Below, in pieces: positions 17,410-55,938 of a stretch of 64,000 nucleotides of DNA. The stretch spans positions 133,610,001 through 133,674,000 of the forward strand of contig OZ024745.1 in NCBI GenBank assembly GCA_964016885.1, given 5' to 3'. The translations under genes and the position numbers were made by a program. Position 1 is the first letter of the stretch. Each line of letters opens with the position of its first letter. Under the pieces are notes generated by a model. It saw only the letters and a list, made by a program, of their open reading frames with translations, was not told the DNA's origin and ran no database searches. Source of the DNA: Eledone cirrhosa. Lineage: Eukaryota.

Positions 17410-17481
<72 letters not shown>

Positions 17482-17484
<3 letters not shown>

Positions 17485-17808
17485 AAAGTTCTATTTAAAG
17501 TTGTTGGGATACAACAAGTAAATATTTTTATAACTGATATAAAGCACTCGACAAGTATTTGGAGTAGATATACGATATTAATAAATGGAAACTATATTTA
17601 TAAAACCATATTTATTTCATTATACATATTTCAGGGATACCAAATTAAATTATGGTATGCCTTCATCAGACAAAATACAATATATAACAGTTTTACAAAT
17701 AAGCTTTGACGTACCCTTTTAAAATGCAACCATTATTTTGGGAAGCCATCTATCCAGATGGCTTCCAAAAATAATGGTTGCATTTCAAAGGGTACATTTA
17801 TTAATATC

Positions 17809-28877: not shown

Positions 28878-29523
28878 GTGTATATATGTATATATATATA
28901 TATCGTCTGCTGGTTGAGTGATTCCGTAGACTATCGTCATGTGATATGACTGTAAGAATACTATAGACGTTGAATCTAAGAACACATTTATATAACTAGT
29001 CTGTCTAGGTGTCTATCAAGTCGTCTTAACATACCAGGCTTGTGTAGTTGTCCGGTAGGTATACAGACATGTTTAATTCCCACAAACAGTATTATCGTAT
29101 ATTTTTTTATCATATTTAGCATGTGTATAAGTTTGGCCCTGCTTTCTTTTTTCAGTTGTCATATTTTCACTGGGTAATCCTCCTGCGTAACTTAACGAAT
29201 TTCCTTACACCTTTCTTATCTGTAGTCTTTGCTTTTCGATTTGTAAAAGTTCACTACGTAATGTATATACAGTGTCCTGTAGTGTTATTTTCTCTATATT
29301 TTTTATGTATATGTCTGACTTGACAATAATTTCCATATTTTGCAATTGCTCAAATGTTTACCTTCTTCTATACCCACTCTGCTTCTTCCAATGCATAGAA
29401 TATTCCCCTGCTTTCTGGTCGAGTTGTTAGCTATGTTGCCATTTCAATATGTCTACACCTCGATGTGAAAATGTACAAATAAATATTAAGATGTATCGAA
29501 CACGATACATGACAACCACCAGA

Positions 29524-32500
29524 TCACAATTGTCTAACACCAAAACACAATTGGCTAAGATCAGAACACATTTGTCTGAAACTAGAACACAATAGTCTAA
29601 GACCAGAACACAATTGTCTGAGACTAGAACACAATTGTCTGAGACCAGAACACAATTGGCTGAGACTAGAACACAATTGGCTGAAACCAGAACACAATTG
29701 TCTGAGACCAGAACACAATTGTCTGAGACTAGAACACAATTGTCTGAGACCAGAACACAATTGTCTGAGACTAGAACACAATTGTCTGAGACCAGAACAC
29801 AATTGCCTGAGACTAGAACACAACTGTCTGTTGACCAGAACACAATTGACTGAAACCAGAACACAATTGTCTAAGACCAGAACGAAATTGTCTGAGACCA
29901 GAACACGACTGTCTGAGACTAGAACACAATTGTCTGAGACTAGAACACAACTGTCTGAAACCAGAACATAATTGTCTGAGACTAGAATACAACTGTCTGA
30001 GACCAGAACATAATTGTCTGAGACCAGAATACAATTGTCTGAAACCAGAACACAATTGTCTGAGACCAGAACACAATTGTCTGAGACCAGAACACAATTG
30101 TCTGAAACCAGAACAGAATTGTCTGAAACCAGAACACAATTGTCTGAAACCAGAACACAATTGTCTGAAACCAGAACACAATTGTCTGAGACTAGAACAC
30201 AATTGTCTGAAACCAGAACACAATTGTCTGAGACCAGAACACAATTGTCTGAGACCAGAACACAATTGTCTGAGACCAGAACACAATTGTCTCAGACCAG
30301 AACAAAATTGTCTGAAACCAGAACACAATTGTCTGAAACCAGAACACAACTGTCTGAAACCAGAACACAATTGTCTGAAACCAGAACATAATTGTCTGAA
30401 ACCAGAACACAATTGTCTGAAACCAGAACACAATTGTCTGAGACTAGAACACAATTGTCTGAGAACAGAACACATTTGTCTGAGACCAGAACACAATTGT
30501 CTGAGACCAGAACACGTTTGTCTGAGACTAGAACACAACTGTCTGAGACCAGAACACAATTGTCTGAGACGAGACACAATTGTCTGAAACCAGAACACAT
30601 TTGTCTGAGACCAGAACACAATTGTCTGAAACCAGAACACAATTGTCTGAAACCAGAACACAACTGTCTGAAACCAGAACACAATTGTCTGAAACCAGAA
30701 CATAATTGTCTGAAACCAGAACACAATTGTCTGAAACCAGAACACAATTGTCTGAGAGTAGAACACAATTGTCTGAGACTAGAACACAATTGTCTGAGAC
30801 TAGAACACAATTGTCTGGGACCAGAACACATTTGTCTGAGACCAGAACACATTTGTCTGAGACTAGAACACAACTGTCTGAGACCAGTACTCAACTGTCT
30901 GAGACCAGAACACAATTGTCTGAGACCAGAACACAATTGTCTGAGACTAGAACACAATTGTCTGAGAACAGAACACATTTGTCTGAGACCAGAACACAAT
31001 TGTCTGAGACCAGAACACGTTTGTCTGAGACTAGAACACAACTGTCTGAGACCAGAACACAATTGTCTGAGACCAGAACACAATTGTCTGAGACCAGAAC
31101 ACAATTGTCTGAGACCAGAACACAATTGTCTGAAACCAGAACACATTTGTCTGAGACCAGAACACAATTGTCTGAAACCAGAACACAATTGTATGAAACC
31201 AGAACACAACTGTCTGAAACCAGAACACAATTGTCTGAAACCAGAACACAACTGTCTGAAACCAGAACACAATAGTCTGAGACTAGAACACAATTGTCTG
31301 AAACCAGAACACAATTGTCTGAAACCAGAACACAACTGTCTGAGACCAGAACACAATTGTCTGAGACCAGATCACAATTGTCTGAAACCAGAACACAATT
31401 GTCTGAAACCAGAACATAATTGTCTGAAACCAGAACACAATTGTCTGAAACCAGAACACAATTGTCTGAGACCAGAACACAATTGTCTGAGACTAGAACA
31501 CAATTGTCTGAGACTAGAACACAATTGTCTGGGACCAGAACACAATTGTCTGAGACCAGAACACATTTGTCTGAGACCAGAACACATTTGTCTGAGACTA
31601 GAAAACAACTGTCTGAGACCAGAACACAACTGTCTGAGACCAGAACACAATTGTCTGAGACCAGAACACAATTGTCTGAGACCAGAACACAATTGTCTGG
31701 GACCAGAACATAATTGTCTGAGACTAGAACACAACTGTCTGAGACCAGAACACAATTGTCTGAAACCAGAACATAATTGTCTGAAACCAGAACACAATTG
31801 TCTGAAACCAGAACACAATTGTCTGAGACCAGAACACAATTGTCTGAGACTAGAACACAATTGTCTGAGACTAGAACACAATTGTCTGAGACCAGAACAC
31901 AACTGTCTGAGAACAGAACACAATTGTCTGAGACCAGAACACAACTGTCTGAGACCAGAACACAATTGTCTGAGACCAGAACACAATTGTCTGAGACCAG
32001 AACACAATTGTCTGGGACCAGAACATAATTGTCTGAGACTAGAACACAACTGTCTGAGACCAGAACACAATTGTCTGAGACCAGAACACAATTGTCTGAG
32101 ACCAGAACACAATTTTCTGAAACCAGCACACACTTGTCTGAAACCAGAACACAATTGTCTGAGACTAGAACACAACAGTCTGAGACCAGAACACAATTGT
32201 CTGAGACTAGAACACAATTGTCTGAGAACAGAACACATTTGTCTGAGACCAGAACACAATTGTCTGAGACCAGAACACGTTTGTCTGAGACTAGAACACA
32301 ACTGTCTGAGACCAGAACACAATTGTCTGAGACGAGACACAATTGTCTGAAACCAGAACACATTTGTCTGAGACCAGAACACAATTGTCTGAAACCAGAA
32401 CATAATTGTCTGAAACCAGAACACAATTGTCTGAAACCAGAACACAATTGTCTGAGAGTAGAACACAATTGTCTGAGACTAGAACACAATTGTCTGAGAC

Positions 32501-35500
32501 TAGAACACAATTGTCTGGGACCAGAACACATTTGTCTGAGACCAGAACACATTTGTCTGAGACTAGAACACAACTGTCTGAGACCAGTACTCAACTGTCT
32601 GAGACCAGAACACAATTGTCTGAGACCAGAACACAATTGTCTGAGACTAGAACACAATTGTCTGAGAACAGAACACATTTGTCTGAGACCAGAACACAAT
32701 TGTCTGAGACCAGAACACGTTTGTCTGAGACTAGAACACAACTGTCTGAGACCAGAACACAATTGTCTGAGACGAGACACAATTGTCTGAAACCAGAACA
32801 CATTTGTCTGAGACCAGAACACAATTGTCTGAAACCAGACCACAATTGTCTGAAACCAGAACACAACTGTCTGAAACCAGAACACAATTGTCTGAAACCA
32901 GAACACAACTGTCTGAAACCAGAACACAATAGTCTGAGACTAGAACACAATTGTCTGAAACCAGAACACAATTGTCTGAAACCAGAACACAACTGTCTGA
33001 GACCAGAACACAATTGTCTGAGACCAGATCACAATTGTCTGAAACCAGAACACAATTGTCTGAAACCAGAACATAATTGTCTGAAACCAGAACACAATTG
33101 TCTGAAACCAGAACACAATTGTCTGAGACCAGAACACAATTGTCTGAGACTAGAACACAATTGTCTGAGACTAGAACACAATTGTCTGGGACCAGAACAC
33201 AATTGTCTGAGACCAGAACACATTTGTCTGAGACCAGAACACATTTGTCTGAGACTAGAAAACAACTGTCTGAGACCAGAACACAATTGTCTGAGACCAG
33301 AACACAACTGTCTGAGACCAGAACACAATTGTCTGAGACCAGAACACAATTGTCTGAGACCAGAACACAATTGTCTGGGACCAGAACATAATTGTCTGAG
33401 ACTAGAACACAACTGTCTGAGACCAGAACACAATTGTCTGAAACCAGAACATAATTGTCTGAAACCAGAACACAATTGTCTGAAACCAGAACACAATTGT
33501 CTGAGACCAGAACACAGTTGTCTGAGACTAGAACACAATTGTCTGAGACCAGAACACAATTGCCTGAGACCAGAACACAACTGTCTGAGAACAGAACACA
33601 ATTGTCTGAGACCAGAACACAACTGTCTGAGACCAGAACACAATTGTCTGAGACCAGAACACAATTGTCTGAGACCAGAACACAATTGTCTGGGACCAGA
33701 ACATAATTGTCTGAGACTAGAACACAACTGTCTGACACCAGAACACAATTGTCTGAGACCAGAACATAATTGTCTGAGACCAGAACACAATTTTCTGAAA
33801 CCAGCACACACTTGTCTGAAACCAGAACACAATTGTCTGAGACTAGAACACAATTGTCTGAGAACAGAACACATTTGTCTGAGACCAGAACACAATTGTC
33901 TGAAACCAGCACACACTTGACTGAGACCAGAACACAATTTTCTGAAACCAGCACACACTTGTCTGAAACCAGAACACAATTGTCTGAGACTAGAACACAA
34001 CAGTCTGAGAACAGAACACATTTGTCTGAGACCAGAACACAATTGTCTGAGACCAGAACACGTTTGTCTGAGACTAGAACACAACTGTCTGAAACCAGAA
34101 CACAATTGTCTGAAACCAGAACATAATTGTCTGAAACCAGAACACAATTGTCTGAAACCAGAACACAATTGTCTGAGAGTAGAACACAATTGTCTGAGAC
34201 TAGAACACAATTGTCTGAGACTAGAACACAATTGTCTGGGACCAGAACACATTTGTCTGAGACCAGAACACATTTGTCTGAGACTAGAACACAACTGTCT
34301 GAGACCAGTACACAACTGTCTGAGACCAGAACACAATTGTCTGAGACCAGAACACAACTGTCTGAGACCAGAACAAAATTGTCTGAGACCAGAACACAAT
34401 TGTCTGAGACCAGGACACAATTGTCTGAGACTAGAACACAATTGTCTGAGACCAGAACACAATTGTCTCAGACCAGAACACAATTGTTTGAAACCAGAAC
34501 ACAACTGTCTGAAACCAGAACACAATTGTCTGAGACCAGAACACAATTGTCTGAGAACAGAACACATTTGTCTGAGACGAGACACAATTGTCTGAAACCA
34601 GAACACATTTGTCTGAGACCAGAACACAATTGTCTGAAACCAGACCACAATTGTCTGAAACCAGAACACAACTGTCTGAAACCAGAACACAATTGTCTGA
34701 AACCAGAACACAACTGTCTGAAACCAGAACACAATAGTCTGAGACTAGAACACAATTGTCTGAAACCAGAACACAATTGTCTGAGACGAGACACAATTGT
34801 CTGAAACCAGAACACATTTGTCTGAGACCAGAACACAATTGTCTGAAACCAGAACACAATTGTCTGAAACCAGAACACAACTGTCTGAAACCAGAACACA
34901 ATTGTCTGAAACCAGAACATAATTGTCTGAAACCAGAACACAATTGTCTGAAACCAGAACACAATTGTCTGAGAGTAGAACACAATTGTCTGAGACTAGA
35001 ACACAATTGTCTGAGACTAGAACACAATTGTCTGGGACCAGAACACATTTGTCTGAGACCAGAACACATTTGTCTGAGACTAGAACACAACTGTCTGAGA
35101 CCAGTACTCAACTGTCTGAGACCAGAACACAATTGTCTGAGACCAGAACACAATTGTCTGAGACTAGAACACAATTGTCTGAGAACAGAACACATTTGTC
35201 TGAGACCAGAACACAATTGTCTGAGACCAGAACACGTTTGTCTGAGACTAGAACACAACTGTCTGAGACCAGAACACAATTGTCTGAGACGAGACACAAT
35301 TGTCTGAAACCAGAACACATTTGTCTGAGACCAGAACACAATTGTCTGAAACCAGAACACAATTGTCTGAAACCAGAACACAACTGTCTGAAACCAGAAC
35401 ACAATTGTCTGAAACCAGAACACAACTGTCTGAAACCAGAACACAATAGTCTGAGACTAGAACACAATTGTCTGAAACCAGAACACAATTGTCTGAAACC

Positions 35501-38305
35501 AGAACACAACTGTCTGAGACCAGAACACAATTGTCTGAGACCAGATCACAATTGTCTGAAACCAGAACACAATTGTCTGAAACCAGAACATAATTGTCTG
35601 AAACCAGAACACAATTGTCTGAAACCAGAACACAATTGTCTGAGACCAGAACACAATTGTCTGAGACTAGAACACAATTGTCTGAGACTAGAACACAATT
35701 GTCTGGGACCAGAACACAATTGTCTGAGACCAGAACACATTCGTCTGAGACCAGAACACATTTGTCTGAGACTAGAAAACAACTGTCTGAGACCAGAACA
35801 CAATTGTCTGAGACCAGAACACAACTGTCTGAGACCAGAACACAATTGTCTGAGACCAGAACACAATTGTCTGAGACCAGAACACAATTGTCTGGGACCA
35901 GAACATAATTGTCTGAGACTAGAACACAACTGTCTGAGACCAGAACACAATTGTCTGAAACCAGAACATAATTGTCTGAAACCAGAACACAATTGTCTGA
36001 AACCAGAACACAATTGTCTGAGACCAGAACACAGTTGTCTGAGACTAGAACACAATTGTCTGAGACCAGAACACAATTGTCTGAGACCAGAACACAACTG
36101 TCTGAGAACAGAACACAATTGTCTGAGACCAGAACACAACTGTCTGAGACCAGAACACAATTGTCTGAGACCAGAACACAATTGTCTGAGACCAGAACAC
36201 AATTGTCTGGGACCAGAACATAATTGTCTGAGACTAGAACACAACTGTCTGACACCAGAACACAATTGTCTGAGACCAGAACACAATTGTCTGAGACCAG
36301 AACACAATTTTCTGAAACCAGCACACACTTGTCTGAAACCAGAACACAATTGTCTGAGACTAGAACACAATTGTCTGAGAACAGAACACATTTGTCTGAG
36401 ACCAGAACACAATTGTCTGAAACCAGCACACACTTGTCTGAGACCAGAACACAATTTTCTGAAACCAGCACACACTTGTCTGAAACCAGAACACAATTGT
36501 CTGAGACTAGAACACAACAGTCTGAGAACAGAACACATTTGTCTGAGACCAGAACACAATTGTCTGAGACCAGAACACGTTTGTCTGAGACTAGAACACA
36601 ACTGTCTGAAACCAGAACACAATTGTCTGAAACCAGAACATAATTGTCTGAAACCAGAACACAATTGTCTGAGAGTAGAACACAATTGTCTGAGACTAGA
36701 ACACAATTGTCTGAGACTAGAACACAATTGTCTGAGACCAGAACACAATTGTCTCAGACCAGAACACAATTGTCTGAAACCAGAACACAACTGTCTGAAA
36801 CCAGAACACAATTGTCTGAGACTAGAACACAATTGTCTGAGAACAGAACACATTTGTCTGAGACCAGAACACAATTGTCTGAGACCAGAACACGTTTGTC
36901 TGAGACTAGAACACAACTGTCTGAGACCAGAACACAATTGTCTGAGACGAGACACAATTGTCTGAAACCAGAACACATTTGTCTGAGACCAGAACACAAT
37001 TGTCTGAAACCAGAACACAATTGTCTGAAACCAGAACACAACTGTCTGAAACCAGAACACAATTGTCTGAAACCAGAACACAACTGTCTGAAACCAGAAC
37101 ACAATAGTCTGAGACTAGAACACAATTGTCTGAAACCAGAACACAATTGTCTGAAACCAGAACACAACTGTCTGAGACCAGAACACAATTGTCTGAGACC
37201 AGATCACAATTGTCTGGGACCAGAACACAATTGTCTGAAACCAGAACATAATTGTCTGAAACCAGAACACAATTGTCTGAAACCAGAACACAATTGTCTG
37301 AGACCAGAACACAATTGTCTGAGACTAGAACACAATTGTCTGAGACTAGAACACAATTGTCTGGGACCAGAACACAATTGTCTGAGACCAGAACACATTT
37401 GTCTGAGACCAGAACACATTTGTCTGAGACTAGAACACAACTGTCTGAGACCAGAACACAACTGTCTGAGACCAGAACACAATTTTCTGAGACCAGAACA
37501 CAACTGTCTGAGACCAGAACACAATTGTCTGAGACCAGAACACAATTGTCTGAGACCAGAACACAATTGTCTGGGACCAGAACATAATTGTCTGAGACTA
37601 GAACACAACTGTCTGAGACCAGAACACAATTGTCTGAAACCAAAACATAATTGTCTGAAACCAGAACACAATTGTCTGAAACCAGAACACAATTGTCTGA
37701 GACCAGAACACAATTGTCTGAGACTAGAACACAATTGTCTGAGACTAGAACACAATTGTCTGAGACCAGAACACAACTGTCTGAGAACAGAACACAATTG
37801 TCTGAGACCAGAACACAACTGTCTGAGACCAGAACACAATTGTCTGAGACCAGAACACAATTGTCTGAGACCAGAACACAATTGTCTGGGACCAGAACAT
37901 AATTGTCTGAGACTAGAACACAACTGTCTGAGACCAGAACACAATTGTCTGAAACCAGAACACAATTGTCTGAGACCAGAATACAATTTTCTGAAACCAG
38001 CACACACTTGTCTGAAACCAGAACACAATTGTCTGAGACTAGAACACAACAGTCTGAGACCAGAACACAATTGTCTGAGACTAGAACACAATTGTCTGAG
38101 AACAGAACACATTTGTCTGAGACCAGAACACAATTGTCTGAGACCAGAACACGTTTGTCTGAGACTAGAACACAACTGTCTGAGACCAGAACACAATTGT
38201 CTGAGACCAGAACACAATTGTCTGAGACTAGAACACAATTGTCTGAGAACAGAACACAATTGTCTGAGACTAGAACACAATTGTCTGAGAAATTGTCTGA
38301 GACCA
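29524..38305. repeat. 21-bp satellite array (ccagaacacaattgtctgaga), ~418 monomers, higher-order structure
   Basis: Continuous tandem array; 20-bp variant (gagacgagac) at 30566, 32329, 32769, 34574, 34783, 35286 and 36944. Confidence 0.99.
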
Positions 38306-48822: not shown

Positions 48823-49829
48823 TACATACATACATACATACATACATACATAGATGCAACAGGCATACATACATACATACATACATAGATGCAACATGCA
48901 TACATACATACATACATACATACATACATACATACATACATACATACATACATACATACATACATACATACATACTCGAATGTTGTGATCAAATTGTGTT
49001 TGAGCGAATATTTTAAATGATAACTGTGTGAAAAAGACTATAGTAGCCAGAGGATGTGATTTTGGATGAAAGAGCAAAACGTTAGTTAATATAATGGGAT
49101 ATAATGAAACCGACGGTAGAGCACAGGGGATGTAATTTGTACTGAAGTCCTCCAACGACAGATACCATGGAACTGTGTAGCGAGACAATCAGTTACTCTA
49201 ATGCTGTATGTATAAGTGCAAATATTTTCCATAACCTAGTGGTTTAACAAATGGGGATCGATACCAGACTAGAATACATACGAGCCGATATTACTAAACA
49301 CGTAAAGGAATCCAGATGAATTCCAGTTTAAAAATTGAAACCAGTAAAAGAATAAACAAATAAAATAAAATCTTAAACGAATACAATCCGAGACATTTAA
49401 TAATCAGTAAATGTGAATTCATAAAACACCAGAGGTAATAAATGCAATTTCTTATTGCATAATGTTTTCATATCATTGCATTTAATTTTATAGTTTTTCT
49501 TCTCGATTTTCCATTAGAATCACAACTTTTCTAAACACAAACATCAAAGCATTTTAATCATAGACTACAGATCACTGATTGCAGGACAATATTAGTTTGA
49601 AATACATTGCCATTGGTAACATTTTCAATTTGCAGTACTTCAAATATTTCGTCAATGACTATCTAATTTAATTTCGAAGTCTAAGGTGAAATAAAAGAAG
49701 TGAAAACAAATCTCGATAAGAGAAATGTAAAACCAAATATCATCAAAATTGATGGAAACTAGTAATTGACTTTCGCGTAGTTGACCTTCGTTTTGTCCAT
49801 TAATGTATGTATGTATATATATATATACG

Positions 49830-49909
<80 letters not shown>

Positions 49910-49960
49910 ACTAAATAATCATATATATACGTATACACATACACACATATATATATGTAT

Positions 49961-50009
<49 letters not shown>

Positions 50010-50141
50010 AAAGTTCTATTTAAATTGTTGGGATACAACAAGCAAATATTGTTATAACTGATATAAAGCACTCAACAAATATTTGGAGTAAAAATACGAT
50101 ATTAACAAATGGAAACTATATTTATAAAACCATATTTATTT

Positions 50142-50199
50142 CATTATACATATTTCAAGGACACCAAGTTAAATTATGGTGTGCTTTCATCAGATAAAA
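50142..50199 (-). ncRNA. Type I hammerhead in the PLE 3' UTR
   Basis: ttttat-CTGATGA-aagcacacca taatttaact tggtgtcctt-GAAA-tatg-TA-taatg; stem II covaries with the 17.6-kb copy. Confidence 0.7.
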
Positions 50200-51681
50200 T
50201 ATAATATAGATCAGTTTTATAAATAAATATTGATATACCCTTAAAGAATGCAACCATTGCTGTTGGAAGCTCCCGGATAGTGGAGTTGTAGCTTTAATTA
50301 TATTGGATATTTTTATTTTTAAAATAAGCCGTTGGGTTACGGAGAAAGAGAAAGATATAGAAGGAGAGAGAAAGAAAGAGAGAGAGAAAAAAGAGAGAAA
50401 GACCAGAACAACAGAGAGAGAAAGATAGAGAGAGAGGGGGGAGACAGAGAAAAGGGGAGAGAACGAAAAACTCTAAGTCATATCTTGTTGAGTTAACTTA
50501 ACAATTGAGATGAAATGAATAAATAAAATTAGAAATGTTAATAATCATGAATGGGATATACATATATAATATGAGAAATTTAACCATTGTTTAAATATGA
50601 TTAGATGTTTAGTTAATCATTTAAATATTGAGATCAATTTGGGATCTATATATTAAGAAATCCATATATTATTAAAGATCTATATATTATATAACACGTA
50701 TACACACGCAAAAAATACATACATATAAATATATATACACACTTATAAAATACATATACATATATAATTACGTATATAATATATACACTCAAAACATAAA
50801 GGATTCTTTAATTTAATTTAAGATATAGGAATCTTATAAAATGTTATAATTGTTAAGATATCAAAGGAAATTTTATGTTATACACACTTTGTTATTAAAC
50901 AAATTTTTTTTTAATATAAGTTTTATAAGATTACCTATTATGTATTTATGGCTGTTATTATATGTCTATCTGTCACGAATCTTGGCATAATCTCTATACA
51001 TAAGTGCAATCGAATTGTATGGATATACACGAACATGTACATACACAATTCCCACATATACATACATATATGTACCCTCAACAAATAGGTAGATACGCAT
51101 CTCGTATACATATACATACAGATAGACATACACGCATAAAACATATGTACATGTATGTCAATACACACATATACATATATACACACATATAGAGAGAAGT
51201 ATATATAAATACATTACGTAGTATAATTGAGTACATAAATACAAAAGAATTATATTACAATTTGGAAATATAATTATAAGTAATATAACTTTAAAAACAA
51301 TATAATTTTAAAATATTATAGAATATTTTAAGTTATAATTTCAAAATAATAGTATGTTTAATAGTATAGAAATTTTCTACGTATATTTAACTTAAGTTTA
51401 TATCCATAAGAGAAATAAACAGAAACTTTGAAAGGATAAACTTTCGAAAATAGGAGAAGCTATCAAACAATAAAAGCAATAAAAAATTAAAAAATATAAG
51501 AAATATTTTCTCCTTTCAAGAGCTCTCAATATATTTCTCTAGAATAGTTTATTATATTTATTTATATTTAGGAAGAAAAGTTATTTTTACTTGAGTGTAT
51601 AATCAGTCAAAAAAGATGAAGGAATCTAATGATTTATCGACAGGTTCAATATATTAATAAAATTAATTAATTAATTATATA

Positions 51682-53130
51682 TTACATTTTAAATTTATAT
51701 TTATATTTAAACGTTGAGTTTAATCTATGTTTGCAGCAACTGAATAAATTATTTCTTAAGTTCAGGGAATTTTTGGTCTTTAATATAAAGAATATTTCCT
51801 CTATACAAAGATCACAATTTTCTGAAGAGGAGTTAAAAGGAGTAGCTTTTGAAATAATATTCCAAATCAACGAATATTCAACGTTCTTTAGTTTTAGGTC
51901 CCATAATAGGCTAGATAGAGAAGTTGATTTTTTGTTTGGATCTGTAAAAGAATTTTTATGATTATTGAAGCGGGATTTAAACTCTGTGGAAGTGGATCCC
52001 ACATAATTAAATGAATTTAAATTAGTTTTTACATTACAATTATATACTGTATTTTTAGCTAAGCACAGTTAGATTTATTTCTACAGTTACATTTATCAAA
52101 TTGGATATTGCTTGGGTTATTAGTGGTATTTTGGTTAGGTTTTAAATTTATATTATTAATTTTATTAATATTTTGCGCTAAATTTTTGGTGGAAGAATAA
52201 GTTAATTTTATAGTATGTCTATTAAAAATTGAGTAATATCTATGTGTTCTAGGGAAGCATTTGTCAAGAGCTTTAAAAAAAGTTTAGCAATAGGGGTTTT
52301 AATATTTAATGAGAAAGGAGGAGCGAACCATAATATGTTCCTAGTTCTATTTCTTTTTCGGCTTTCGGAATTAATGTAAGGTTTTCTATTATAGTTGTTA
52401 AAATTGTTACCATAGTTAAAATTGTTACGATTATGGTTAGTTGTTATATTATTATTATTATCGATGTATTTAATTTTATTTCTATACCCAGCTCTACCTA
52501 ACGCTTCGTTGTAATAATGTGTTTTTTCATCAAATATATTCTTACTTTTAGATTAAGGTAATTAAAAAATTGTATAATTTTTTTTCTTTTTCTATTTAGT
52601 TGACAGATATTATTTTCTATAAGTAAAAGCATGTCGTCGCGATATAAACCTCCGGTAATCTCAGGTATTTTTCTATGTAGAGAATTATTTATAAATAGGC
52701 CCACAAGATCCGTTACCTGAGCGGAATCGGATGATCCCATAGTTATATCGAAATTATTATTTCTATCTGCCCCAGTCCAGAGTTGGTTATTAAATTCTAT
52801 TAATGTTTTCCGTGACGATAATATAATGTGCATTTCATTGCTAGTTAGGTCTGTATGTTTAAATGCGTAAGTTAGTGCTTTATTCAGTAGATTAGGAATG
52901 ATAGATGAGTAATAGTTAGCAATATCCAACTGAATAAACTTATTATTATAGTTATATTTAATTTCTTTAAACCAATCGATAACTTCACTAGTTCCTTTCC
53001 ATAATTTTAAATAAGATAAATTCTTAATTTGTGGTATTATTCTGTCTAGAATATTTTTGCTAAGTCTGCCAAGGTCCGATTTAGATGGTGCAATTAATCT
53101 GACTGGTAAATCAGTTTCGAAGTTCCTTTT
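51682..53130 (-). pseudogene. Disrupted PLE RT + GIY-YIG endonuclease ORF
   Basis: ORF pieces 52498-52929 and 51682-52002; frameshifts; apparent deletion of late RT/thumb near 52535. Confidence 0.85.
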
Positions 53131-53135
53131 ATCTA

Positions 53136-53200
<65 letters not shown>

Positions 53201-55938
53201 GTGTGTGTAGACATATATATATGTGTGTATGTGTATACATATATATATGATTATTTAGTTCTCTCGCTCTCTCTCTATATATATATATATACATGCATAC
53301 ATACATATATATTCAGTTGAAAGTTGGTTGATCAAATAATCCTTTTCGTAAAAAGACGTAAAGCACTACACGTTTGTATTCCTTATGATTTTCTTTCTAA
53401 GGTATCAACAGCCGTTTCAATATAATAAGAGAGACAGTTTTATTCGTACACCTTTATTTTATTATCTAATTCCATTATACGTATTTCAAAGATGCAAGGG
53501 TTGTCATATAATAACCCCTAGCATGTTTACTTCAAATGGAGTGAGATGTATTTTCCTATCCATTGATATGTTACTGGTTTAATACGTTAACATCGTTGTC
53601 CAGTACTCATATGAATAATGTTGCTATTATAGCAGTTCTATTTGAAGTGGGAGACAGTATTGTTGCTGGTGTTAGTGACTGAAAGGAACCTATGGTATCA
53701 AATTACCAGAGAGGACATTTATTTCTTAGAATGGCTGGAAAGCACTATTAATTTGTTTCTTATTTCTGGACTTAAATCTATGTACTTGTATTTGTATCGT
53801 AGGTATTAATAATTTGATAATGGAGTTACAGTGTAGCTATGTATTTATGTATGGTTAATTGGTTTAAGGTCTATTTTATATTACTGATGGAAGCGTTAAC
53901 TATATATTCTGTGTGGAGCGGAGTTGGGTAAACAAGAGAATTTGGTTCGAAGAGAATGGTAAAGGACGGAAGAAGTTGGTGAGAAATGACGTTAAAGACC
54001 TGTACAGAATCATAACAAACTGACAACAGCAATAAGGGGTTCAGGTATTCCAATGGTGAAGGGTTGAACATTGGTAATGAGTGAGGAATGACCAGCCAGG
54101 TAGGTGAAATATTTCCATGATGAACTGGATATGGCGGAGCTGAACGTCTTTCATTTTAGCCAGGCTTGGATCACCTGCAGATGGTAACTGGGGGCAACGT
54201 CAAAGGAACTGGTCACGTGAAGAAAAGATTAGTGTAAGGAACAGATTAATCTTATAAAAGATGACATCGTTTAATATTTGCCTCAACTAAGACTGAAACT
54301 ATTAGTGTAAATAGTTATTGTCGAAAGACCTATATTAGATAACTGCTTCGTAGTCTTTCATATTTAACTACAAATTCTACCGGGAGTACAGTATAGATAT
54401 GTCTGGCTCTACAACACGATTCATGAAAATTGGATATTCACTACAACATATTCTAGAAAATCACCTGCAGTGAAAAAAAATGAAAGTAAAATACACGAAG
54501 GTCTAATTACACGTTATGTATATCATGGATTTCCGTGTTTTGTTATATTGTAAACTAAATATTTTCCTAAATAAGTTTGTTGATGAATAATAATAAAGTT
54601 AAGATTATTTTTCATGTTATCTAAATAGTTCTGAGAAAGAATATTATTTATCTTACATTTACTCTTAAGTGATATCAACATTTAATGCTATGTTCGGGTT
54701 TGTTATTAATACTGCCGGGAAAGTAATTTACGTAAATGTACGGCTGTTTATTTCTATTAATTTGTAGCATATTTACTATATGGTTTCATTATCTATAACA
54801 ATATTAGTCACTAGATATTTTGTATCACTAACTGATGATATGATCAAATTATATTTTGAACATCTGGAAATATATTTTCCAATTAGTTCTGTCTAGTGTT
54901 ATATAATAGAGATACGTTTCAGGTGAGCTTATTTCGCAGCATGATTACCATTTCAATGTATATACAATTGCTAACCGCTTATAACATCGAAGATGACTTG
55001 AACATCTCATTTATCGTTATTTTTATAATTATACCTTACAATTCTGAAAGGCCACAAGTACATACTTGGTACTTATTTATCGACCTGTAATAATAGAATC
55101 CAAAGTCGATCTCGATTACATTTGAAATGAAGATATGGATGAACGGACATACTGTAAGGAACATAGTCCAACTCTCATTCACCCATTTCTGAAGCTCTTT
55201 CCTTTCGTCCACATTTTATAGACATTTGTTCTTCTCAAAGAAAAGTAATCTGTATCAATAACAATTATAATTAACTGTCTTTACTGTGCTCCAATAATAC
55301 CGATGTCTCTCTTAAGCATAATGCCAATTATGTCAGAGAATAATCGAATGGCGCTAGTTATACTTCTATTCAGCATGAAATAAAATTTATAATCAATAAA
55401 CTAAGACACCAAATGTGACACTATATAACAGTGAAACCCATAATATGAAATTTGCGCTAATATGAATGCAGTAATAAATTGTAGTAATATAATTCAAATA
55501 GAGTATTGGTAGCCAGGTGAATAGAGTAGTGAACTACTAGTCTACATCTCACAGGTTCTTATCCTTTAACGGTACGCTCCCCAGTTTAAGTAATTAATAC
55601 AGAGAAATCCATGTTAAACCTCCAAAACTTAACAGTGCAATACATTTGTTACCAAAAGAAGTATTGGGGCAGTGGGTTACAATCTATCTCAGTAAAACCA
55701 ACTGCATTCCATGAAGTGAAGGCATTTGTAAGTATGTCTCACCGAATAACAGGACTACCATCCACGGGGAGTAAGACGAATTTTCACAGCACTTTGGTTT
55801 CCAGTTAGGTTTTTCTAACAACACTTGAGATTAACGTCAGGCTTTTTCATCGCCGTTACAATTAAAATGTGTAAGATTCTATTAAGGAAGTAAGAATTTA
55901 TACATATATATATATATGGTGTTTGTGTGTGTGTGTGT

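What the first reader, a model, noticed from the sequence alone, without database searches (positions are those of the whole stretch)
49803..53310. Penelope insertion bracketed by an inverted duplication of its flank
Seen: the left flank (49803-50006; TA/GA runs with unique aactaaataatc at 49909) reappears reverse-complemented on the right (53131-53310; gattatttagtt at 53249), including the order of microsatellite blocks. Established: retrotransposition normally leaves direct target-site duplications. Inference: after 5' truncation the nascent strand switched onto flanking DNA via TA microhomology and copied ~180 bp backwards, which is the long-range version of the fold-back mechanism and a way to propagate microsatellites.
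Basis: partly seen in the sequence, partly recalled or inferred. Interest (0 to 1): 0.75.

Follow-up and report, generated by a model that had tools for sequence, protein, structure and literature searches.

The report
Penelope element inside TA fold-back palindrome
A broken jumping gene sits between two mirror-image copies of a short repeat-rich stretch found nowhere else in the genome, but the same mirror duplications also occur around TA repeats with no jumping gene inside, so the element likely landed in a ready-made palindrome rather than creating it.

Summary
The arms are 96% complementary over 115 nt and their core occurs exactly twice in the 3.0-Gb genome. The element is a 5'-truncated Penelope-like element of the Hydra clade (C-terminal GIY-YIG, CxCX5C, DKT), not a Naiad. 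The duplication is not family behaviour: 0 of 156 other copies have a unique flank duplicated in inverted form; their usual 5' junction is an inverted piece of the element itself or plain (TA)n. In 800 kb taken at round coordinates, 2 of 356 (TA)n clusters are centres of genome-unique inverted duplications with 130-190-nt arms that end in outer TA runs and hold no element (L140, L223). That 0.6% matches 1 of 157 insertions. Best reading (0.5): a TA-primed fold-back made the palindrome and the TA-targeting element later split it. No empty allele could be read, and arm divergence does not date the order. Earlier notes of this scan report Hydra elements and TA foldbacks elsewhere in this genome.

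The parts
49803..50006 (+). Left arm: compound microsatellite (TATG)n-(TA)n-(GA)n-unique 11-nt core-TA/CA blocks-inner (TA)n
   Evidence: core unique in genome; flank 49200-49803 single-copy
50007..53130 (-). 5'-truncated, decayed Hydra-clade Penelope-like element; about 590 nt of the 5' end missing relative to long copies
   Evidence: nearest of 17 relatives 2.5% apart in the coding part
50007..50093 (-). 87-nt one-sided tail, between the two recurrent 3' end points of the family; joins (TA)n
50135..50205 (-). Minimal type I hammerhead-like motif in the pseudo-LTR (CUGAUGA, stem II, GAAA)
   Evidence: sequence and fold, z -2.28; no Rfam hammerhead hit at E<=1; activity untested
51682..52100 (-). 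C-terminal GIY-YIG endonuclease region with CxCX5C linker, CxxC and CxH; frameshifted
   Evidence: Pfam PF01541 E 0.0023, below its curated cut-off; translation
52537..52544 (-). Junction of an internal deletion of about 185 nt in this copy, with short microhomology
52498..53130 (-). Reverse transcriptase fragment (YRDD motif), 5'-truncated at 53130 and joined to (TA)n
   Evidence: no Pfam hit for this piece; like Hydra-1_Obim by eye
53131..53310 (-). Right arm: reverse complement of the left arm, with a shorter GA run
53311..53911 (-). Older dispersed repeat, likely the pseudo-LTR of another Penelope-like family; its tail end abuts the right arm
   Evidence: 40 candidates scored, best other copy 86% identical, two recurrent 3' ends and inverted pieces; high depth in runs

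Best explanation
A short inverted duplication centred on a (TA)n run likely formed first, by fold-back copying, and a TA-targeting Hydra-clade Penelope-like element likely inserted later into its central (TA)n and pushed the arms 3.1 kb apart. Step 1 (inferred): a 3' end in the self-complementary (TA)n annealed back on its own strand or the sister strand, copied about 130-200 nt of neighbouring DNA backwards, and returned to the normal template at the next TA run. Step 2 (shown for the family, inferred for this site): the element's endonuclease cuts (TA)n, cDNA starts at the tail end point, stops early at 53130 and joins the other half of the TA run through TA microhomology. Step 3 (shown): slippage, substitutions, frameshifts and a 185-nt deletion followed.
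For: Two element-free twins, unique in the genome, with arms that start at a central (TA)n and end in an outer TA run: L223 (C8:20,006,9xx; one substitution in the unique part) and L140 (C9:30,001,3xx). They are 2 of 356 TA clusters in 80 stretches of 10 kb; 0 of 5815 cross-paired controls gave a low-copy core. The 5' junction is ordinary: 29 of 52 copies without an inverted arm join (TA)n directly, and 9 of 20 in the last batch. TA repeats are known cruciform and break sites repaired by microhomology joining (PMC13645644, passages), and local template switches make inverted repeats in AT-rich DNA (PMC7954356, passages).
Against: The empty allele was not seen, so the order of events is not shown. 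Arm divergence gives no sign that the arms are older than the element: 5 of 115 nt, against 3.7% (unique) and 6.4% (microsatellite-like) pooled over 52 pairs of element arms born together (noisy, some pairs misassigned). An uncalibrated comparison with this copy's own branch (0.7-1.2%) leaned towards older arms (p 0.03-0.3 for the core), but the calibration removes that lean. This copy lacks an inverted element arm, as only 72 of 157 do, which fits fold-back at insertion about twice as well; within the TA-joined subclass the rate was 1 of 29 versus 2 of 356 (p 0.21), 1 of 38 with the last batch. The background rests on two events. The element-free twins could themselves be scars of failed insertions.
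Confidence: 0.5

Rival explanations
1. Fold-back during insertion: the truncated cDNA end annealed to the (TA)n on its own primer strand, copied the left flank backwards, and rejoined the other end at the TA remainder next to the older repeat.
For: The geometry fits: the cDNA is the + strand primed from the left, and the right arm is the reverse complement of that strand. The copy has no inverted element arm. Arm divergence is compatible with the age of the insertion. LINE-1 experiments report self-annealing of cDNA ends, inverted duplications at the target site and 3 insertions with sequence templated from nearby DNA (PMC11702581, section 7 and passages).
Against: 0 of 156 other insertions, including 37 of the same TA-joined subclass, show it. 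The background of element-free palindromes already predicts about one such case in 157.
Confidence: 0.38
2. 3' transduction plus normal two-ended priming: a read-through RNA carried the arm as the flank of a source copy; both cut ends primed on it, and the second cDNA stopped before reaching element sequence.
For: Two-ended insertion is the family's main mode (65 of 117 copies have an inverted 3' arm), and a Penelope-like protein extends both strands in vitro (PMC11167929, passages).
Against: It needs a source locus with a third copy of the core; none exists in the assembly. L140 and L223 also have no third copy.
Confidence: 0.06
3. Later long-range template switch or gene conversion across the element, between its two flanking TA runs, or an assembly artefact.
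For: TA runs on both sides give microhomology; raw reads could not span the arms.
Against: The arms differ by 5 substitutions and by repeat lengths, and no element sequence is mirrored. Unique sequence right of the locus matches a 2-kb contig of run X3 without a mismatch.
Confidence: 0.06

Closest known systems
Hydra clade of Penelope-like elements, including Hydra-1_Obim (Craig et al. 2021, PMC8557442; sections 6 and 11 read, passages, supplement searched)
   Same: C-terminal GIY-YIG, CxCX5C linker, CxxC and CxH, DKT, RWK-like motif, hammerhead-like core, insertion into (TA)n, inverted 5'-truncated arm and one-sided tail.
   Different: Unit about 4 kb rather than under 3 kb (long microsatellite-rich 3' region); tail 87 nt rather than 30-40. 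The parts read describe inverted copies of the element, not of the flank.
Short-range template switching (Walker et al. 2021, PMC7954356; passages read) and fold-back inverted duplications (PMC3907307, PMC10622511; search listing only)
   Same: Local reverse-complement copy of neighbouring DNA that makes an inverted repeat, enriched in AT-rich DNA.
   Different: Here both switch points lie in (TA)n and the copied tract is 130-200 nt of mostly microsatellite, a class that the Walker pipeline filters out as low complexity or masked.
LINE-1 fold-back junctions and target-site inverted duplications (PMC11702581; section 7 and passages read, supplementary figures S9 and S10 not seen)
   Same: An insertion bridging two inverted copies of the same flank, explained by self-annealing of the cDNA end.
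   Different: Those are somatic, often chromosome-scale, APE-endonuclease events; this one is a small heritable duplication around a GIY-YIG element, and coupling to the insertion is not shown.

Membership tests
Naiad PLE | N-terminal GIY-YIG before RT | tested here: not met
   GIY-YIG lies downstream of RT; long copies start the ORF without an endonuclease
Naiad PLE | No canonical hammerhead; DKA motif | tested here: not met
   Hammerhead-like core present; long copies have DKT
Hydra PLE | C-terminal GIY-YIG with CxCX5C linker, CxxC and CxH | tested here: met
   CNCRNKSNC, CDLC and CKH in the translation; definition; Pfam hit weak
Hydra PLE | DKT and RWK motifs | tested here: met
   DKT and RWR in long copies L043, L056, L060; this region is truncated in the window copy
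Hydra PLE | Insertion into (TA)n | tested here: met
   117 of 122 loci passed a filter for a TA (or AC) run at the 3' end with readable flanks; 49 of the loci were found with a TA-bearing pattern, so the share is biased upward
Hydra PLE | Canonical hammerhead in the pseudo-LTR | tested here: inconclusive
   Core motifs and stems present, but no Rfam hammerhead hit; cleavage untested
Hydra PLE | Placement in the Hydra clade by RT phylogeny | not tested
   Only a by-eye comparison with Hydra-1_Obim
Hydra PLE | Generally under 3 kb | tested here: not met
   Unit of L056 is 4037 nt; the paper gives this as a tendency, not a rule
DNA transposon or foldback element with terminal inverted repeats | The terminal repeat recurs at other loci | tested here: not met
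   Core only at this locus
Canonical PLE inverted 5' arm | The inverted piece is element 3' sequence | tested here: not met
   The right arm holds no element sequence
Insertion-generated flank duplication | One copy at the empty site | not testable with these tools
   No relative genome, no second haplotype in the assembly, runs uninformative

The most novel reading that the evidence does not exclude
Penelope endonuclease cuts in (TA)n set off fold-back copying of the neighbouring 100-200 nt. The thousands of element-free TA-centred palindromes in this genome are then scars of failed insertions, this locus is the rare case in which the cDNA was kept, and the elements are a genome-wide engine of palindrome formation and microsatellite growth.
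Probability: 0.2. Interest if true: 0.62.

Novelty: new member of a known kind. Interest (0 to 1): 0.3.

Why it matters
As a single locus it is a curiosity made of two known things: a TA-targeting Penelope-like element and a TA-primed fold-back duplication. The by-product is more useful. Unique palindromes centred on (TA)n occur here at roughly 2 per 0.8 Mb, which extrapolates to several thousand in the genome (about 900 to 27,000 on a Poisson interval; my arithmetic, stretches not drawn in proportion to contig length). They double compound microsatellites and could be counted genome-wide. If they proved to depend on the Penelope endonuclease, they would record an unresolved step of Penelope insertion, the handling of the second DNA end.

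Tried and rejected
Terminal inverted repeats of a DNA transposon: rejected, the core is unique. L107 looked like a second case but its duplicated flank is a dispersed repeat with 111 exact matches; dropped. L067, L047, L164 and L182 score only through simple TA variants and fail the strict core rule. L102 has a direct, not inverted, duplication. L091's 25-nt palindrome has 4 matches in the genome, so it is not counted; L221 was not checked for uniqueness; L230, L126 and L243 are repeats or periodic; L206 is a two-armed Penelope insertion. Five of 122 loci were dropped for disrupted or gapped ends, and four pattern loci earlier (two duplicates, one cut off, one with no mapped block); L086 and L087 are two copies of one duplicated locus. 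Empty-site test with runs: X1, X2 and X6 do not cover the unique right flank, X3 contigs end at the repeat; the copy-specific depth test in X3, X4, X5 and X7 was swamped by family copies. The small shares of X1 and X2 are no evidence of an orthologue. Rfam gave only microsatellite-driven miRNA matches below gathering scores. Dating by arm divergence was inconclusive. Literature: six searches listed no paper on inverted flank duplication at Penelope insertions or on TA-centred palindromes in octopus; most hits were seen as listings only, and supplements I did not see (PMC11702581 figures S9 and S10) may bear on precedent.

Full report
Observation. The stretch 49803-50006 reappears as its reverse complement at 53131-53310. 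The ungapped core is 115 nt at 96% complementarity, with 5 mismatches; the GA run differs in length and the outer ~50 nt align loosely. The core matches exactly twice in the 3.0-Gb genome with three different patterns, controls 0. The left flank is single-copy. The right neighbour, 53311-53911, is an older dispersed repeat, at best 86% identical to its other copies, with the two-end-point, inverted-piece layout of a Penelope pseudo-LTR. No further part of the left flank recurs in the window.

The element. It lies on the minus strand from 53130 to 50007, 5'-truncated inside RT, frameshifted, with a deletion of about 185 nt. GIY-YIG is C-terminal (weak hit), preceded by CxCX5C and followed by CxxC and CxH. 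Long copies carry DKT and RWR, and the 3' region has a hammerhead-like core (no Rfam hammerhead hit). These are the Hydra features listed by Craig et al. 2021 (section 11), and the ORF resembles Hydra-1_Obim by eye. It is not a Naiad. The host is probably an octopus (inference from this likeness and from earlier notes).

How the family inserts. In the first 117 loci with readable junctions, 65 have an inverted 3' piece of the element at the 5' side, and in 58 of these one arm ends with the 87-nt tail and the other without; 52 have no inverted arm, and 29 of those join (TA)n directly. Forty more loci gave 20 with and 20 without an inverted arm. This is the known architecture (PMC8557442 section 6) and fits cleavage and extension of both strands in vitro (PMC11167929, passages). 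The sample is not random: it comes from best-scoring DNA hits and from patterns that require the tail and a TA run.

Is flank duplication part of it? With one strict rule (alignment score at least 22 after collapsing simple runs, and a shared non-periodic word of at least 14 nt), only the window copy and L107 pass among 157 loci. L107's flank is a dispersed repeat with 111 exact matches. So 0 of 156 other insertions duplicate a unique flank in inverted form, which bounds the rate at about 2%.

Background. The same rule applied to (TA)8+ clusters in 80 stretches of 10 kb at round coordinates found 356 clusters. Two are clear, genome-unique palindromes with nothing in the centre but (TA)n: L223 (arms about 130-150 nt, one substitution in the unique part) and L140 (arms about 190 nt, several substitutions, nested inversions at the centre). 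In both, the arms end in an outer TA run, as here. L221 may be a third but was not checked. Cross-paired controls gave no low-copy core in 5815 pairs. The background rate, 0.56% (95% interval 0.07-2.0%), predicts about one such case among 157 insertions.

Order of events. The window copy's terminal branch is 1.2% and its private substitutions 0.74%. The arms differ by about 4%, which at first leaned towards older arms. But element arms born in one insertion differ by 3.7% in unique and 6.4% in microsatellite-like positions, pooled over 52 pairs, so the test does not separate the models. The window copy has no inverted element arm, which favours fold-back at insertion about twofold; the subclass rate of 1 of 29 is not significantly above background (p 0.21). 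Sequencing runs did not reach the arms or an empty allele.

Mechanism. Shown: the unique inverted duplication, the element-free twins, the family's TA targeting and junction types. Inferred: a 3' end in self-complementary (TA)n folds back, copies the neighbouring DNA and returns at the next TA run. TA repeats are known cruciform and break sites repaired through microhomology (PMC13645644, passages), and local template switches generate inverted repeats in AT-rich DNA (PMC7954356, passages). Whether the 3' end was genomic (palindrome first, 0.5) or the element's cDNA (at insertion, 0.38) is open; LINE-1 offers a precedent for the latter (PMC11702581). Transduction with two-ended priming (0.06) lacks a source copy.

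Verdict. A real, unique structure, but most simply two known processes meeting at one TA run. New member of a known kind, interest 0.3. The boldest open reading, that Penelope cuts drive TA fold-back palindromes genome-wide, has probability about 0.2.

Noticed in passing
L140:1107-1650 (G000:C9:30,001,1xx-30,001,6xx) and L223:6782-7127 (G000:C8:20,006,8xx-20,007,1xx): Element-free, genome-unique palindromes centred on (TA)n with arms of 130-190 nt ending in outer TA runs; possibly thousands in the genome.
   Followed up: yes
L102, 5' junction (G000:C11:48,250,9xx): Direct duplication of about 75 nt of 3' flank together with the last ~12 nt of the element, placed before the 5' end; too long and oddly composed for a target-site duplication.
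   Followed up: partly
L039 and window 53130: Two independent copies are 5'-truncated within a few bases of the same position and joined to (TA)n; a possible truncation hotspot.
   Followed up: no
window 17414-17746: Short copy of a sister subfamily's 3' end with tail in (TA)n, followed by a small inverted piece.
   Followed up: partly
window 53311-53911: Older Penelope-like pseudo-LTR remnant with a degraded hammerhead-like end and two recurrent 3' end points.
   Followed up: partly
L180:544-1179 and L053:2144-2743: Head-to-head palindromes of about 600 nt with TA at the outer ends and no obvious element sequence; possibly two-ended insertions of other RNAs.
   Followed up: no
window 29518-38290: Tandem array of a 21-nt unit, about 418 copies at 91% match; coding potential not examined.
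   Followed up: no
L107 flanks: Four alternating copies of the end of another repeat family (111 exact matches in the genome), two of them split by this family's insertion.
   Followed up: partly
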